A stretch of DNA of 64,000 nucleotides from Myxococcota bacterium (lineage in GTDB: Bacteria; Myxococcota_A; UBA796; UBA9615; JAKLKC01): the NCBI GenBank assembly GCA_023150875.1, contig JAKLKC010000024.1, positions 9,119 through 73,118 of the forward strand, in the 5' to 3' direction. Shown in pieces: positions 25,023 through 49,030 of this stretch (position 1 is its first letter; each line of letters starts with the position of its first letter). The notes under the pieces are model-generated. The model did no database searches and had not been told where the DNA came from. It saw only the letters and a program-made list of their open reading frames with translations. Made by a program: the position numbers and the translations under genes.

Positions 25023-26785
25023 CCGCCCGGATCCGCAGGGGGGCGCATCGCGCGGCCGCCCCGGGAGCCCCGGGGACGCGGACCGATCCGGGTGGCGCGG
25101 CGCGGCCGCCCCCCGCGGGGCCCGCCCCGGGGAACGCACCCTCGGGGACCCTGCTGGGCCGCGGACTCGCCATCCTCGTCGTGGCGGCCTGGATCTGGCT
25201 CTCGATGACCCAGGTGCCCGCCCTGCGGGCCTGGGAGAGCACCCGGTCCTGGGGGTGGACGGCCTTGGGCCTCCTCTGGCGCACCGCCACGGGCGAGCCG
25301 GTGGTCGTCCATTCCGATCTCCCCCTCGGAGTGCTCGCCGCCGCGGAGGCCGCGGTGATCGCCGCGATCCTCTTCGCGGCCGCCGTGGCGCGGGAGGCGT
25401 CCCCCGCGTGGCGACTCGCGTGCCTGGTCACCTGGGCGCAGATCTTCCCGTATCTCCCCGCGATCCTCGAGCTGTCGGGCCTCTGGCTCGCCCTGCCCGC
25501 GGCCGGGGCCATTCCCATGCTGGTGGCGGCGAAGGGACGGCGCCCCCTCGGGCCGGCGGCGATGGTCCTGGTGGAACTCGGCTGGGTTCCCGCGTTCTTC
25601 CCCTTGGCGCTCTTCACCGGAGTCATCCTCCACGTCGCGCCGCGGGTGGTGCTGGTGGGCCTGCCGGGGTGCATGGCCCTCGCCGCGGCCGTGGCGTGGG
25701 GCACCCCCCGCTGGTTGGGGATCCGCCGGCCATGGCCCAGCCTCCGCCCCGCCGTGTCGGTCCTCGTCAGCGGGTTCGCGTGGGCCTACGTGGGCGGCTC
25801 GCGCCTGGGCGCCTGGCACGAGGCGACGGAGGCCGGCCCGCGCTGCCAGGAGGTGAGACGGGGGCAACCCGGGCTGAGATGGTACGACACGCCCCCCGGC
25901 CCCCCGCTGTGGTCGGCGGTCCCGGTCCCGGGCGGAGCGCTGGCCGTGGGGGACGGGTTCGCCGTCCTCGCTCAGGACGCCGGCGGTCCGCCGGAGAGGG
26001 TCGAGATCCCGGGCTGCACCCATCCGGAGTACCTCGCCCCGGCCCGCCCCTCGGGCTTCTGGACGGTGTGCGCGATGCGCCGCGCCGTCCGCCTCGAGTC
26101 CTCCCCGCTTCGGGTCGTCGAGGACCTGGAGCTCCCTGGCCCCGTCGCCGAGACGCGGGGGGTGGTGGATTGGGGACGGCACGGGTTGCTGGTGTCGACC
26201 ACCGGGGTGTCCGCCCTGCTCGCCCGCGACCGTGCCCACACCTGGCCCTGGAGGCAGGGGGTCGCCAACATCCCCGTGGACCTCGGCGAGCGCCTGGCCC
26301 TGCTCACCTTCCGCAACGTCATCGAGCTGGACGCCTCCCTGGGGGCCCGGAGGAACGCCACGGTCCCGACCGCGATGTTCACCAACGCCGCCCCCGCCGG
26401 CGGCGCGGCGGGGCTCTGGATCGGGGACGCGGCGCGCCAGGGACTCCACCGGTTCTCGACGGAGGCGTGGCGCGTGGAGGGCTTCGTCCCCCTGGGCTTC
26501 CCGCCCCGCCACGTCGTGTCCGACGACGCCGGCCGCGCCGCCGCCGTGGACCACATGAGCGGCGCGATGGCGCTGGTGGACCCGGAGCGCGGAGTGTATG
26601 CCCGCGCCGACGTCGGCCCCCGGGCGCGGAACCTCGCGTGGGCGGGGGACGGGAGCCGGATCGTGGGGGTGTCGTCGTGTGGCGTCTACGCGATCCACCC
26701 GCCGGCCACCGCCGGCCCCGGTGGCCGGGGGCACGCGCCCTCACCCGAGGAAGCGTCGCTCCCCGATGGTCCGCAGCATCCGTAG
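25019..26785 (+). CDS. Membrane protein with a C-terminal beta-rich (propeller-like) domain. Unknown function.
   Basis: GTG overlaps the upstream stop (GTGA). Several TM helices (ILVVAAWIWLSM, VIAAILFAAAVA, LWLALPAAGAIPMLVAA...). The start is uncertain. Confidence 0.45.
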   Translation: MTARIRRGAHRAAAPGAPGTRTDPGGAARPPPAGPAPGNAPSGTLLGRGLAILVVAAWIWLSMTQVPALRAWESTRSWGWTALGLLWRTATGEPVVVHSDLPLGVLAAAEAAVIAAILFAAAVAREASPAWRLACLVTWAQIFPYLPAILELSGLWLALPAAGAIPMLVAAKGRRPLGPAAMVLVELGWVPAFFPLALFTGVILHVAPRVVLVGLPGCMALAAAVAWGTPRWLGIRRPWPSLRPAVSVLVSGFAWAYVGGSRLGAWHEATEAGPRCQEVRRGQPGLRWYDTPPGPPLWSAVPVPGGALAVGDGFAVLAQDAGGPPERVEIPGCTHPEYLAPARPSGFWTVCAMRRAVRLESSPLRVVEDLELPGPVAETRGVVDWGRHGLLVSTTGVSALLARDRAHTWPWRQGVANIPVDLGERLALLTFRNVIELDASLGARRNATVPTAMFTNAAPAGGAAGLWIGDAARQGLHRFSTEAWRVEGFVPLGFPPRHVVSDDAGRAAAVDHMSGAMALVDPERGVYARADVGPRARNLAWAGDGSRIVGVSSCGVYAIHPPATAGPGGRGHAPSPEEASLPDGPQHP

Positions 26786-47888: not shown

Positions 47889-49030
47889 GCCCGGACCCCG
47901 CCCCGGGCGGCGTGATCCACCTGCACCGCCCCACCCTCGGGGAGGAGGAGGCGCGGGCCATCGCCGAGGCGCTGGAGTCCGGGCAGCTCGTCCAGGGGCC
48001 GCGGGTGCGGGCGTTCGAGGCCGCCCTGGAGGGGCTGCTGGGGGTGCCCCACGCGGCGGCGGTCTCGTCGGGGACGGCGGCCCTGCACCTCGCCGCCCTC
48101 GCCCTGGACCTGGGGCCCGGCGACGAGGTGGTGGTGCCGGACTACACCTTCCCCGCCACCGCCGCCGCCTTCGCGCGGGTGGGGGCCTCGCCGGTCCTGG
48201 CCGACGTGGACCCCGACACCGCCAACGTCACCCCGGCGACGGTGGAGGCGGTGCTCAGCCCCCGCACCCGGGCCCTGGTCGCGGTGCACCAGTTCGGCCT
48301 CCCCGCGCCGGTGGAGCCCCTGCGGGCCCTCTGCGACGCCCGGGGGATCGCCTTCGTGGAGGACGCCGCCTGCGCCCTGGGGGCGGAGGTGGCGGCCCCC
48401 GGAGGCCCGCGCCGCTGCGGCACCTTCGGTCGGCTGGCCTGCTTCTCGTTCCACCCCCGCAAGGCGATCACCACCGCCGAGGGGGGGCTGGTCACCACCG
48501 CGGACCCGGCCCTGGACGCGCGGATCCGCCTGCTCCGCAACCACGGGATGACCCCCGGCGGGCCCACCGGCTTCGTCTTCGTCGAGGCGGGCCTGAACTA
48601 CCGCCTCACCGAGGTCCAGGCCGCCATGGGCCTGGTCCAGCTCGGCCGCCTGGGTGGGATCCTGGCGGCCCGCCGCCGCCTCTCCCTGGGCTATCGCGAG
48701 CGCCTGGAGGCCCTGCTGCCCGACCTGGGGCTCCCCGCGGACCCTGAGGGCGCCCCCCACACCTACCAGACCTTCCTGGTGCGCCTGCCCCCAGGGGTGG
48801 ACCGGGCCGGGGTGATGGCGGACCTCCGGGAGGCGGGCGTCGAGTCCTCCGTCGGCGCCCACTGCCTGCACCGCCAGCCCGCGTACTCCCGCCCGGACCC
48901 GGGGGACGCGCCCTTCCCCGGCGCCTCGTCCCTGGGCGACCGCGGGCTCGCCCTGCCCCTGCACCCCGGCCTCGGGGACGCCGACCTGGACCGGGTGGTG
49001 TCGGCGCTGGCGGGGGCCCTGGGCCGGTAG
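47885..49030 (+). CDS. DegT/DnrJ/EryC1/StrS-family PLP-dependent sugar aminotransferase.
   Basis: ATG overlaps the upstream stop (ATGA). The family signature is present, with the PLP-lysine region FSFHPRKAITTAEGG. Confidence 0.85.
   Translation: MSPDPAPGGVIHLHRPTLGEEEARAIAEALESGQLVQGPRVRAFEAALEGLLGVPHAAAVSSGTAALHLAALALDLGPGDEVVVPDYTFPATAAAFARVGASPVLADVDPDTANVTPATVEAVLSPRTRALVAVHQFGLPAPVEPLRALCDARGIAFVEDAACALGAEVAAPGGPRRCGTFGRLACFSFHPRKAITTAEGGLVTTADPALDARIRLLRNHGMTPGGPTGFVFVEAGLNYRLTEVQAAMGLVQLGRLGGILAARRRLSLGYRERLEALLPDLGLPADPEGAPHTYQTFLVRLPPGVDRAGVMADLREAGVESSVGAHCLHRQPAYSRPDPGDAPFPGASSLGDRGLALPLHPGLGDADLDRVVSALAGALGR

What the first reader, a model, noticed from the sequence alone, without database searches (positions are those of the whole stretch)
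26741..49030. A glycan cluster combines B12-binding radical SAM enzymes with GT-C membrane transferases, an NTP-transferase/GT2 fusion and an amino-sugar pathway. It is a candidate for a novel methylated or otherwise modified envelope glycan or protein glycosylation system
Two B12-rSAM genes lie within this span (32104-33597 and 39464-40912), and a third sits just beyond at 50594-52186. All three carry clear CxxxCxxC motifs and are unrelated to cofactor biosynthesis. They are interleaved with WecB/TagA, a polyprenyl-P sugar transferase, a Wzx-like flippase, an SDR epimerase, a DegT aminotransferase, three GT-C (PMT/ArnT-like) proteins and an NTP-transferase-GT2 fusion. B12-rSAM enzymes in sugar contexts typically perform C-methylation or epimerisation of unactivated carbons, as in aminoglycoside and fosfomycin pathways. 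Their appearance in what looks like an envelope polysaccharide or O-glycosylation locus is unusual.
Basis: inference. Interest (0 to 1): 0.7.

Follow-up and report, generated by a model that had tools for sequence, protein, structure and literature searches.

The report
B12 radical-SAM genes in glycan locus
A high-GC Myxococcota genome carries three cobalamin-type radical-SAM enzyme genes among cell-surface sugar-polymer genes, and one of them, paired with membrane sugar transferases, matches a gene neighbourhood seen in several phyla that I could not find described.

Summary
The genes are real. There are three class-B (B12-binding) radical-SAM genes with CxxxCxxC at the stated coordinates. 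No rSAM reaches the cut-off of any curated family (BchE, HpnJ, HpnR, AprD4 and others).

The region is not one unit. It has about eight transcription units on both strands, and comparison splits it.

- **rSAM1 module.** rSAM1, two GT-Cs and a DUF3604/PHP lipoprotein are kept together in the nearest relative, which has no Wzx genes nearby. Among 79 rSAM1-type loci from Omnitrophota, Planctomycetota, Myxococcota and Desulfobacterota, 36 carry PMT_2-type GT-Cs. Many also carry U32 hydroxylase-like, ArnC-like GT2, DegT, SDR and GDSL genes.
- **rSAM2.** It sits 9 nt upstream of WecG in the window. Its homologues in 79 loci never sit beside WecG or Wzx.

Best reading: a Wzx-dependent lipid-linked glycan operon plus an Arn/Gtr-like polyprenyl-phosphate-sugar to GT-C periplasmic glycosylation module, with the rSAMs as tailoring enzymes of unknown chemistry. 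It is a new variant of a known kind and moderately interesting.

The parts
26741..28171 (-). g17: sugar-1-phosphate nucleotidylyltransferase fused to a Dpm1/AglJ/ArnC-type GT2. Predicted polyprenyl-phosphate-sugar synthase, with no TM segment.
   Evidence: Pfam NTP_transferase, NTP_transf_3 and Glycos_transf_2. NCBIfam AglF-like N-terminus; AglJ, dolichyl-P-hexose transferase and PpgS-like C-terminus. 0 TM.
28378..30327 (+). g18: 7-TM protein with a periplasmic tetrahaem cytochrome c domain. Membership of the system is uncertain.
   Evidence: Pfam Cytochrome_C554 and C7. Four CxxCH motifs. TM count.
30204..32069 (-). g19: GT-C fold membrane glycosyltransferase, a divergent PMT_2-like protein, immediately downstream of rSAM1.
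32104..33597 (-). rSAM1: class-B (B12-binding) radical SAM enzyme, closest to BchE and HpnJ but a member of neither.
   Evidence: Pfam. NCBIfam BchE 234.6 against 481, HpnJ 164.6 against 577. CPYACSFC at residue 210. C210, C214 and C217 invariant in 27 homologues. PDB best hit AprD4 at 97 bits.
33667..36147 (-). g21: DUF3604 / CehA-McbA-type PHP metallohydrolase, probably a periplasmic lipoprotein. Upstream of rSAM1 on the same strand.
   Evidence: Pfam DUF3604. NCBIfam CehA_McbA_metalo 73.5 bits, cut-off 80. Lipobox in the long form. 42% homologue next to the rSAM1 orthologue in L009/L014.
36265..37932 (+). g22: GT-C fold membrane glycosyltransferase (ArnT-like) with an invariant loop-1 Asp39 in a 'DEG' motif.
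   Evidence: 303 representative homologues. Alignment A3. 21 of 50 members hit PMT_2. pLDDT 92.8. Foldseek top hits ArnT, AftA, DPY19 and STT3.
38324..39241 (-). g23: secreted or periplasmic GDSL/SGNH esterase or acyltransferase.
   Evidence: Pfam Lipase_GDSL_2. N-terminal hydrophobic segment. GDSL genes recur in 8 of 79 rSAM1-type loci.
39464..40912 (+). rSAM2: class-B radical SAM enzyme, first gene of the co-directional eight-gene array, 9 nt before WecG.
   Evidence: Pfam. NCBIfam best hits ApyD 117 and BchE 116, far below cut-offs. CPYRCTYC at residue 219. PDB best hits MgmA (9CCB) and AprD4.
40922..41806 (+). g25: WecG/TagA/CpsF-family glycosyltransferase.
   Evidence: Pfam Glyco_tran_WecG 188 bits. 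TIGR00696 139.8, above the cut-off of 69.
41803..43227 (+). g26: polyprenyl-phosphate glycosylphosphotransferase, the initiating PGT of WbaP/WcaJ type.
   Evidence: Pfam Bac_transf and CoA_binding_3. TIGR03025 420 bits, above the cut-off of 295.55.
43224..44810 (+). g27: Wzx-type (Polysacc_synt/MOP) flippase. My GC3 call starts at 43305; the database call starts at 43224 and overlaps the g26 stop by 4 nt.
   Evidence: Pfam Polysacc_synt. Gene call in L001. Multi-TM.
44922..45413 (+). g28: small lipoprotein of unknown function within the operon.
   Evidence: No family hit. Lipobox LAAAC in the sequence.
45434..46750 (+). g29: 1-TM Ala/Arg-rich repeat protein of unknown function within the operon. 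Not a Wzy.
   Evidence: No significant family. 1 TM.
46866..47888 (+). g30: SDR, NDP-hexose 4,6-dehydratase-like. The alternative database start is 46722.
   Evidence: Pfam Epimerase and GDP_Man_Dehyd. NCBIfam dTDP-glucose 4,6-dehydratase 178 bits, below the cut-off of 365.
47885..49030 (+). g31: DegT-family PLP sugar aminotransferase, PseC/ArnB-like. Start overlaps the g30 stop by 4 nt.
   Evidence: Pfam DegT_DnrJ_EryC1 336 bits. NCBIfam PseC 273 and ArnB 236, below cut-offs.
50185..50556 (+). g33: small DMT-superfamily membrane protein (DUF486), 38 nt upstream of rSAM3. A candidate lipid-linked-sugar flippase by inference only.
   Evidence: Pfam DMT_6 152 bits. No homologue in any comparison locus.
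50594..52186 (+). rSAM3: divergent class-B radical SAM enzyme, distantly Ta0216-like.
   Evidence: Pfam. TIGR04190 98.5 against 500. CVHSCLFC at residue 240. Full-length 25-29% paralogues inside multi-rSAM clusters L029, L035, L054, L062, L083 and L091.

Best explanation
The region is a composite envelope-glycan locus built from at least three modules.

(1) An eight-gene co-directional array: rSAM2, WecG, a WbaP/WcaJ-type phosphoglycosyltransferase, Wzx, two unknown proteins, a 4,6-dehydratase-like SDR and a DegT aminotransferase. It would assemble a polyprenyl-diphosphate-linked oligosaccharide that probably contains a 4-amino-4,6-dideoxyhexose, and flip it to the periplasm.

(2) An Arn/Gtr-like 'three-component' periplasmic glycosylation module. 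The NTP-transferase/GT2 fusion (g17) makes an NDP-sugar and loads it onto polyprenyl phosphate. After flipping, the two GT-C enzymes (g19, g22) transfer it to a periplasmic acceptor: the exported glycan, LPS, a lipid or a protein. A periplasmic PHP-type metallohydrolase (g21) and a GDSL esterase (g23) act alongside. rSAM1 belongs to this module.

(3) A small DMT membrane protein plus rSAM3.

The three cytoplasmic class-B radical-SAM enzymes are proposed to tailor unactivated carbons of the nucleotide- or polyprenyl-linked sugars, or of the lipid carrier or acceptor, before export.

Shown: gene identities, GT-C folds, gene spacing, and conservation of the rSAM1/GT-C linkage.

Inferred: the order of steps, the substrate and acceptor, and the rSAM chemistry. 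Methylation is the commonest class-B reaction, but dehydration or rearrangement is equally allowed by the nearest relatives.
For: - Gene identities.
- Tight spacing in the rSAM2-to-DegT array: a 9 nt gap, three 4-nt overlaps, and the largest gap about 115 nt.
- g19 and g22 have the GT-C fold and are related to each other.
- The g17 GT2 domain is of the polyprenyl-phosphate-sugar synthase type.
- The module rSAM1 + g19 (46%) + g22 (40%) + g21 (42%) is conserved in the nearest relative genome, GCA_964426935.1.
- In 79 rSAM1-type loci from genome contigs there are 62 PMT_2-type genes in 36 loci, directly adjacent to a B12-rSAM in 25. ArnC-like GT2 occurs in 10 loci, DegT in 5, SDR in 8 and GDSL in 8, mostly co-directional.
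- Enrichment over rSAM2-type loci: p = 5e-10 by genes and 2.6e-9 by loci.
- In cultured Desulfatibacillum alkenivorans DSM 16219, a full-length g22-family GT-C (hhalign 99.95%) lies next to a B12-rSAM. The same cluster holds a GT2, a GDSL, an rSAM1-type gene and further rSAMs.
- rSAM2- and rSAM3-like paralogues occur inside such clusters.
- No rSAM meets any curated family of known unrelated function.
Against: - WecG and Wzx homologues are absent, and the PGT has one hit, across 158 comparison loci.
- rSAM2's nearest homologue (58%) lies by HEAT and ccm genes. Other homologues lie by DnaJ/Hsp70/TPR genes or in rSAM/SPASM arrays that resemble peptide-maturase clusters.
- The 50-60% identity clade of rSAM1 has no GT-C neighbour (0 of 14). 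It sits by a fatty-acyl-reductase-like SDR and a methyltransferase, which hints at lipid chemistry.
- Modules in the window are on different strands and are interrupted by a cytochrome c gene.
- No Wzy, WaaL, PCP or OPX gene was found, so the fate of the glycan is unknown.
- Cobalamin binding, substrate and reaction are all untested.
- The nearest solved relatives act on an aminoglycoside (AprD4), proteins (MgmA) or small molecules.
Confidence: 0.5

Rival explanations
1. Glycolipid rather than polysaccharide pathway. The rSAMs, and elsewhere the U32 hydroxylase-like proteins, modify a lipid such as a polyprenol, hopanoid-like, fatty-alcohol or ether lipid. The GT2 and GT-C enzymes then glycosylate that lipid. 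The Wzx operon is merely a neighbour.
For: - rSAM1's best curated matches are BchE, HpnJ and HpnR, which act on lipid or tetrapyrrole substrates.
- The 50-60% clade sits beside a fatty-acyl-reductase-type NAD_binding_4 SDR and a methyltransferase.
- Distant clusters pair B12-rSAMs with UbiU/TrhP-like U32 proteins in 31 of 79 loci.
- The Wzx module is not conserved with rSAM1.
Against: - All those family scores are well below the cut-offs.
- The window has no U32, squalene/hopene or fatty-acid genes near the rSAMs.
- DegT and SDR sugar genes recur in the distant clusters.
- The nearest solved relative of rSAM1 is the sugar-acting AprD4.
Confidence: 0.2
2. Mosaic by juxtaposition. Only the Wzx operon and the GT2/GT-C genes are glycan genes. 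rSAM2 and rSAM3, and perhaps rSAM1, serve unrelated functions and lie here through lineage-specific rearrangement.
For: - rSAM2 and rSAM3 linkages are not conserved.
- In the same relative genome, the orthologues of rSAM1 and rSAM2 are on different contigs in different contexts.
- The window has many short transcription units in both orientations.
Against: - Three class-B rSAMs within 20 kb mirrors the multi-rSAM arrays seen in 37 of 79 loci with three or more copies.
- The 9-nt rSAM2-WecG spacing has no room for a separate promoter.
- The rSAM1/GT-C linkage is conserved and statistically enriched.
Confidence: 0.2
3. Protein or peptide modification system. The rSAMs methylate or cross-link a protein or RiPP, and the PMT_2-like GT-Cs O-glycosylate proteins.
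For: - rSAM2's best curated hit is the RiPP enzyme ApyD, and its best PDB hit is MgmA, a protein Gln C-methylase.
- rSAM-SPASM genes accompany rSAM2-type genes in 17 of 79 loci and rSAM1-type genes in 18 of 79.
- PMT_2 is named after protein O-mannosyltransferases.
- A g19 homologue lies next to an rSAM-SPASM gene.
Against: - No precursor-peptide, protease or exporter genes were seen in the window.
- Scores to ApyD and the RiPP families are far below the cut-offs.
- ArnC-like GT2, DegT and SDR genes point to sugar-donor synthesis.
Confidence: 0.08
4. The rSAMs are ordinary members of known families (BchE cyclase, HpnJ, HpnR, HpnP) with known functions unrelated to glycans.
For: rSAM1's top NCBIfam hit is BchE, with E = 2e-69.
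Against: - BchE 234.6 bits against a cut-off of 481; HpnJ 164.6 against 577; HpnR 151 against 650.
- rSAM2 and rSAM3 score even lower.
- No bacteriochlorophyll or hopanoid genes are in the window.
Confidence: 0.02

Closest known systems
Arn (Pmr) lipid A L-Ara4N pathway: ArnB (DegT), ArnA (SDR), ArnC (GT2), ArnE/F (small DMT/SMR flippase), ArnT (GT-C)
   Same: The same logic and the same protein families: a DegT aminotransferase (ArnB-like at 236 bits), an SDR, a polyprenyl-phosphate-sugar GT2, a small DMT-superfamily membrane protein and ArnT-like GT-C folds. In the distant rSAM1-type clusters the GT2 is most similar to ArnC.
   Different: No ArnA formyltransferase domain and no ArnD. Every score is below the Arn equivalog cut-offs. 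There are two GT-Cs, a GT2 fused to an NTP-transferase, and three class-B rSAMs, which the Arn pathway lacks.
Three-component periplasmic glycosylation systems (GtrA/GtrB/Gtr-type; CsbB/GtcA/YfhO). From established knowledge.
   Same: A GT2 polyprenyl-phosphate-sugar synthase plus GT-C transferase(s) that decorate a glycan already exported by a Wzx-type pathway.
   Different: No GtrA-family flippase was detected; DMT_6 is only a candidate. No radical-SAM enzymes are known in these systems.
Wzx/Wzy-dependent EPS and O-antigen loci (WbaP/WcaJ PGT, WecG/TagA, Wzx)
   Same: The PGT passes TIGR03025 and WecG passes TIGR00696. A Polysacc_synt flippase and an NDP-amino-sugar pair (dehydratase plus DegT) are present.
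   Different: No Wzy, WaaL, PCP/Wzz or OPX/Wza was found in the window. A class-B rSAM is the first gene of the operon.
Class-B (cobalamin) radical SAM enzymes acting on sugars in antibiotic pathways (GenK, GenD1, Fms7, MoeK5; AprD4 as a B12-domain-bearing dehydratase)
   Same: A B12-binding domain followed by a radical-SAM domain with CxxxCxxC. AprD4 is the nearest solved relative of rSAM1, at 97 bits.
   Different: The context is an envelope-glycan and GT-C locus, not an aminoglycoside or phosphoglycolipid antibiotic cluster. The AprD4 family score is 111 against a cut-off of 500. A 2026 review of B12-rSAMs lists no enzyme from such a context.
Hopanoid side-chain module HpnI (GT2) / HpnK / HpnJ (B12-rSAM ring contraction of a lipid-linked amino sugar)
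   Same: A GT2 together with a class-B rSAM acting on a lipid-bound sugar. HpnJ is rSAM1's second-best curated hit.
   Different: HpnJ scores 164.6 against 577. No hpn, shc or HpnK genes are present, and GT-C enzymes are not part of the Hpn module.

Membership tests
Class-B (B12-binding) radical SAM superfamily | N-terminal B12-binding (Rossmann-like) domain followed by a radical-SAM core | tested here: met
   PF02310 and PF04055 are above the gathering cut-offs in all three: rSAM1 84.3/86.1, rSAM2 72.1/85.1, rSAM3 49.8/32.4 bits.
Class-B (B12-binding) radical SAM superfamily | CxxxCxxC [4Fe-4S] motif | tested here: met
   One motif in each, at residues 210, 219 and 240. Invariant in alignments A2 and A4.
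Class-B (B12-binding) radical SAM superfamily | Actual cobalamin binding and use | not testable with these tools
   AprD4, the nearest solved relative of rSAM1, is classed by NCBIfam as a radical SAM diol-dehydratase rather than a methyltransferase, so the domain alone does not fix cobalamin use or the reaction type.
BchE (anaerobic Mg-protoporphyrin IX monomethyl ester cyclase) | Score at or above the TIGR02026 cut-off (481 bits) | tested here: not met
   rSAM1 234.6, rSAM2 116.5, rSAM3 42.7 bits.
HpnJ / HpnR hopanoid rSAMs | Score at or above the TIGR03471 (577.6) or TIGR04367 (650) cut-off | tested here: not met
   rSAM1 164.6 and 151.3; rSAM2 101.2 and 55.7. No hpn genes in the window.
AprD4 radical SAM diol-dehydratase | Score at or above the NF033070 cut-off (500) | tested here: not met
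   rSAM1 111.3, rSAM2 73.1.
GT-C glycosyltransferase fold (ArnT/PMT/STT3-like) | Multi-TM GT-C architecture by structure comparison | tested here: met
GT-C glycosyltransferase fold (ArnT/PMT/STT3-like) | Conserved acidic residue in the first periplasmic loop | tested here: met
   g22 family: Asp39 is the only invariant column among 50 sequences, in 'DEG'. For g19, E39 is invariant in four sequences, which is a small sample.
Pfam PMT_2 (PF13231) | Score at or above the gathering cut-off of 26.1 | tested here: not met
   g19 scores 24.8 bits. g22 has no hit, although 21 of 50 of its homologues hit PMT_2 at E <= 0.01.
Wzx/Wzy-dependent polysaccharide pathway | Initiating PGT and Wzx flippase | tested here: met
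   TIGR03025 420 against a cut-off of 295.55. Polysacc_synt 58.6 against 28.2.
Wzx/Wzy-dependent polysaccharide pathway | Wzy polymerase or WaaL ligase, and PCP/OPX export proteins | tested here: not met
   None was matched in 40 of the 42 called window genes scanned. They may lie elsewhere in the genome.
Arn pathway | ArnA formyltransferase domain, ArnD deformylase, and equivalog-level ArnB, ArnC and ArnT | tested here: not met
   ArnB 236.5 against 631, ArnA 97.6 against 777, ArnC 29.5 against 529. No formyltransferase or deformylase was found.
Recurrent B12-rSAM + PMT_2 (+U32, ArnC-like GT2) neighbourhood (defined here, not a curated family) | An rSAM1-type gene within 10 kb of GT-C gene(s) | tested here: met
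   Window: rSAM1 is 35 nt from g19, and g22 is 2.7 kb away. The same holds in L014. It also holds in 36 of 79 loci, plus the c45 locus L076, whose gene was tested as a g22-type GT-C, and by cluster membership L070.
Recurrent B12-rSAM + PMT_2 (+U32, ArnC-like GT2) neighbourhood (defined here, not a curated family) | U32 hydroxylase-like and rSAM-SPASM partners | tested here: not met
   No Peptidase_U32 or SPASM hit in any window gene scanned.

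The most novel reading that the evidence does not exclude
rSAM1 and its GT-C partners may be the Myxococcota version of a widespread, so far undescribed anaerobe pathway. The pathway is seen as long co-directional operons in Omnitrophota, Planctomycetota and Desulfobacterota. 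These hold up to 10 B12-rSAMs, PMT_2-type GT-Cs, UbiU-like U32 proteins, an ArnC-like GT2, DegT, SDR and GDSL. In this reading, radical methylation and rearrangement plus O2-independent hydroxylation build heavily tailored polyprenyl-linked sugars or glycolipids, which GT-C enzymes then install on the envelope. That would be a new biochemical role for class-B radical-SAM enzymes.
Probability: 0.35. Interest if true: 0.8.

Novelty: new variant of a known kind. Interest (0 to 1): 0.6.

Why it matters
Class-B radical-SAM enzymes form one of the largest enzyme groups with mostly unknown substrates. Their known sugar chemistry comes from antibiotic pathways. A conserved genomic link to GT-C transferases and polyprenyl-phosphate-sugar synthases would place some of them in cell-envelope biogenesis of anaerobic, mostly uncultured phyla. 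It would predict new C-methylated, deoxygenated or rearranged envelope sugars or glycolipids, which could serve as biomarkers or phage and immune determinants.

The pattern also occurs in cultured Desulfatibacillum alkenivorans DSM 16219, so the hypothesis can be tested experimentally.

Tried and rejected
- **Raw ORF listing.** Unusable at 75% GC, so I replaced it with GC3-based calls.
- **Direct sequence searches for the GT-Cs.** Searches of g19 and g22 against PDB sequences found nothing useful. Lenient Pfam added nothing for g16, g22, g28 or g29.
- **g16 as a GT-C.** Rejected (hhalign probability 0.2%).
- **g15 N-terminus as a GT-C.** Left unproven (28.6%).
- **L076 13-TM protein (c31).** Not related to the g22 family.
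- **Promoter and terminator scan of 36-53 kb.** It found 0 promoters and 1 terminator-like site, against 2.2 expected by chance. This is uninformative in this GC range.
- **Literature.** Six context searches combined B12-rSAM with U32, ArnT, O-antigen, LPS, GT-C and Omnitrophota. None returned a description of such clusters. The single Omnitrophota preprint mentions radical SAM only as a domain in giant proteins.
- **BchE or Hpn membership.** Rejected on the curated cut-offs.
- **A conserved rSAM2-WecG/Wzx linkage.** Tested and rejected.
- **g19 homologue contexts.** The contigs were too short to be decisive.

Full report
**Source and gene calls.** The window is about 75% GC, so mechanical ORF lists are dominated by artefacts. 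I called genes with a GC3/GC2 log-odds score. The calls agree with those stored for the identical public contig. The rSAM proteins are 100% identical to entries named 'Myxococcota bacterium'.

**What is in the span.** Pfam and NCBIfam give the following, in order:
- g17, 26741-28171(-): NTP-transferase fused to a Dpm1/AglJ/ArnC-type GT2.
- g18, 28378-30327(+): 7 TM plus a tetrahaem cytochrome c.
- g19, 30204-32069(-): 12-TM protein with PMT_2 just below the cut-off.
- rSAM1, 32104-33597(-).
- g21, 33667-36147(-): DUF3604/PHP metallohydrolase with a lipobox.
- g22, 36265-37932(+): 12-TM protein with no Pfam hit.
- g23, 38324-39241(-): GDSL.
- A tight co-directional array: rSAM2 39464-40912, WecG 40922-41806, PGT 41803-43227 (passes TIGR03025), Wzx 43224-44810, two unknowns, a 4,6-dehydratase-like SDR 46866-47888 and DegT 47885-49030.
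- A convergent SMP-30/gluconolactonase-like gene.
- DMT_6 50185-50556 and rSAM3 50594-52186.

All three rSAMs have a B12-binding domain, a radical-SAM domain and one CxxxCxxC. They share only 26-28% identity. None approaches the cut-off of any curated family. For rSAM1 the scores are BchE 234.6 against 481, HpnJ 164.6 against 577 and HpnR 151 against 650. For rSAM2 they are ApyD 117 against 750 and BchE 116 against 481. For rSAM3, Ta0216 scores 98.5 against 500. The nearest solved structures are AprD4, MgmA (9CCB, identified through), CysS, TsrM and TokK.

**GT-C claim.**
- g22 has 303 representative homologues. In a 50-sequence alignment the only invariant residue is Asp39, in a loop-1 'DEG' motif. 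21 of the 50 members hit PMT_2. The model has pLDDT 92.8. Its best PDB matches are ArnT, AftA, DPY19 and STT3.
- The two families are related: hhalign gives 96.6%.
- A third GT-C is not established. The g15 N-terminus scores 28.6% and g16 0.2%.

**Is the rSAM/glycan association more than adjacency?** For rSAM1, yes.
- In the nearest relative (GCA_964426935.1; rSAM1 66%), homologues of g19 (46%), g22 (40%) and g21 (42%) flank the orthologue. A second B12-rSAM lies there too, and no Wzx-type genes are nearby.
- A profile scan of 185,579 species genomes returned 79 loci at 36-66% identity.
- Clustering their 939 neighbouring genes and annotating representatives gave these counts. B12-rSAM: 222 copies in 78 loci, with 37 loci holding three or more and a maximum of 10. 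PMT_2-type GT-C: 62 genes in 36 loci, adjacent to a B12-rSAM in 25. U32 (UbiU/TrhP-like): 31 loci. rSAM-SPASM: 18. ArnC-like GT2: 10. SDR: 8. GDSL: 8. DegT: 5.
- Many of these are long co-directional operons in Omnitrophota and Planctomycetota. Myxococcota and 'Deltaproteobacteria' loci show rSAM-PMT_2 pairs.
- In cultured Desulfatibacillum alkenivorans DSM 16219, a full-length g22-family GT-C (hhalign 99.95%) abuts a B12-rSAM. The same cluster holds a GT2, a GDSL, an rSAM1-type gene and further rSAMs.
- Compared with 79 rSAM2-type loci as a control, the GT-C enrichment is p = 5e-10 by genes and 2.6e-9 by loci. These tests ignore phylogenetic non-independence.
- The association is patchy. It is 0 of 14 in the 50-60% identity clade, which sits by a fatty-acyl-reductase-like SDR and a methyltransferase.

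For rSAM2 the answer is no, beyond the window itself.
- The closest homologue (58%, same relative genome) lies beside a HEAT protein and the ccm operon.
- 41% homologues form tandem pairs by DnaJ/Hsp70/TPR genes.
- In 79 metagenome loci there is no WecG or Wzx, one PGT, one DegT and only 5 PMT_2-type genes. Frequent companions are further B12-rSAMs (218 copies) and rSAM-SPASM genes (17 loci).
- Its 9-nt spacing to WecG, with 4-nt overlaps downstream, still argues for co-transcription in this organism.

rSAM3 has full-length 25-29% paralogues inside six of the multi-rSAM clusters. Its DMT_6 partner has no homologue in any of the comparison loci.

**Interpretation.** The parts fit two known schemes placed side by side. 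One is a Wzx-dependent lipid-linked oligosaccharide operon with an amino-dideoxyhexose branch. The other is an Arn/Gtr-like route: NDP-sugar, then polyprenyl-P-sugar (GT2), a flip, and GT-C transfer in the periplasm. A periplasmic PHP-type hydrolase and a GDSL esterase would work alongside.

The new element is class-B radical-SAM enzymes embedded in both. I propose that they tailor sugar or lipid-linked intermediates. The reaction type is not determinable from sequence. Rival readings remain open and are scored separately: lipid substrates, unrelated juxtaposition and protein or peptide modification.

**Prior knowledge.** Six full-text searches found no description of B12-rSAM with GT-C or U32 clusters. 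A 2026 review of B12-dependent rSAMs lists no enzyme from an envelope-glycan context, and the words polysaccharide, glycan and sugar do not occur in it. The library does not cover subscription journals, so absence is not proof.

**Verdict.** It is a new variant of known glycan-modification systems, with a plausible but unproven broader novelty. Interest is 0.6.

Noticed in passing
L029, L032, L036, L041, L052, L058, L063, L071 and others (genome-contig loci): Long co-directional operons in Omnitrophota and Planctomycetota MAGs hold up to 10 B12-rSAM genes. These alternate with U32 (UbiU/TrhP-like) genes, PMT_2 GT-Cs, a DUF2079 membrane protein and conserved unknown families of about 492 and 256 aa with no Pfam or NCBIfam hit. 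I found no description of this cluster type.
   Followed up: partly
window 361-3317: fliD (361-1704), fliS (1754-2134) and a PilZ-domain gene (2742-3317). Flagellar genes in a Myxococcota MAG are uncommon for the phylum. They also raise flagellin as a possible glycosylation target, since g31 is PseC-like.
   Followed up: no
window 21840-25022: g15 is a 1060-aa fusion: an N-terminal domain of about 9 TM (weakly GT-C-like, hhalign 28.6%), a weak flavodoxin-like stretch, and a C-terminal FGE-sulfatase/EgtB-SenA-like domain. It is followed by g16 (25181-26785), which has 6 TM and a non-membrane C-terminal region of unknown fold, and no family hit.
   Followed up: partly
window 30204-30327: The convergent genes g18 (cytochrome c) and g19 (GT-C) overlap by 124 nt at their 3' ends. 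The g19 tail (residues 577-621) is low-complexity with pLDDT below 50, so the true C-terminus may be functionally dispensable.
   Followed up: no
window 10525-13860 and 56022-57881: Large secreted proteins carry multiple MopE-type Cu-binding motifs: 8 repeats plus OmpA in one, and FG-GAP repeats in the other. Homologues recur near rSAM1-type genes in several 'Deltaproteobacteria' loci (L017, L073, L084-L087, L089).
   Followed up: no
L015, L016, L021, L026, L028: The 50-55% identity clade of rSAM1 has its own conserved context. It comprises a fatty-acyl-reductase-type NAD_binding_4 SDR, a 218-aa unknown, the rSAM and a SAM methyltransferase, next to gcvP and galactokinase. This suggests a lipid-related role for that clade.
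   Followed up: partly
L007 8599-11386; L008 8599-11383: Tandem pairs of rSAM2-type B12-rSAM genes lie in a conserved context with DnaJ, Hsp70, a 1300-aa zinc-ribbon/TPR protein and a PAPS-reductase-like gene.
   Followed up: no
L014 (CAYRTW010000041.1) and other records: Several MAG records that carry close homologues are titled 'uncultured Rickettsiales' or 'Enterobacterales'. Their gene content and similarity point to Myxococcota-like organisms, so the taxonomic labels are probably wrong.
   Followed up: no
window 52752-55934: A 1060-aa protein downstream of rSAM3 has no Pfam hit. The window also has three consecutive genes (15225-19758) with N-terminal signal or TM segments and no family hit.
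   Followed up: no
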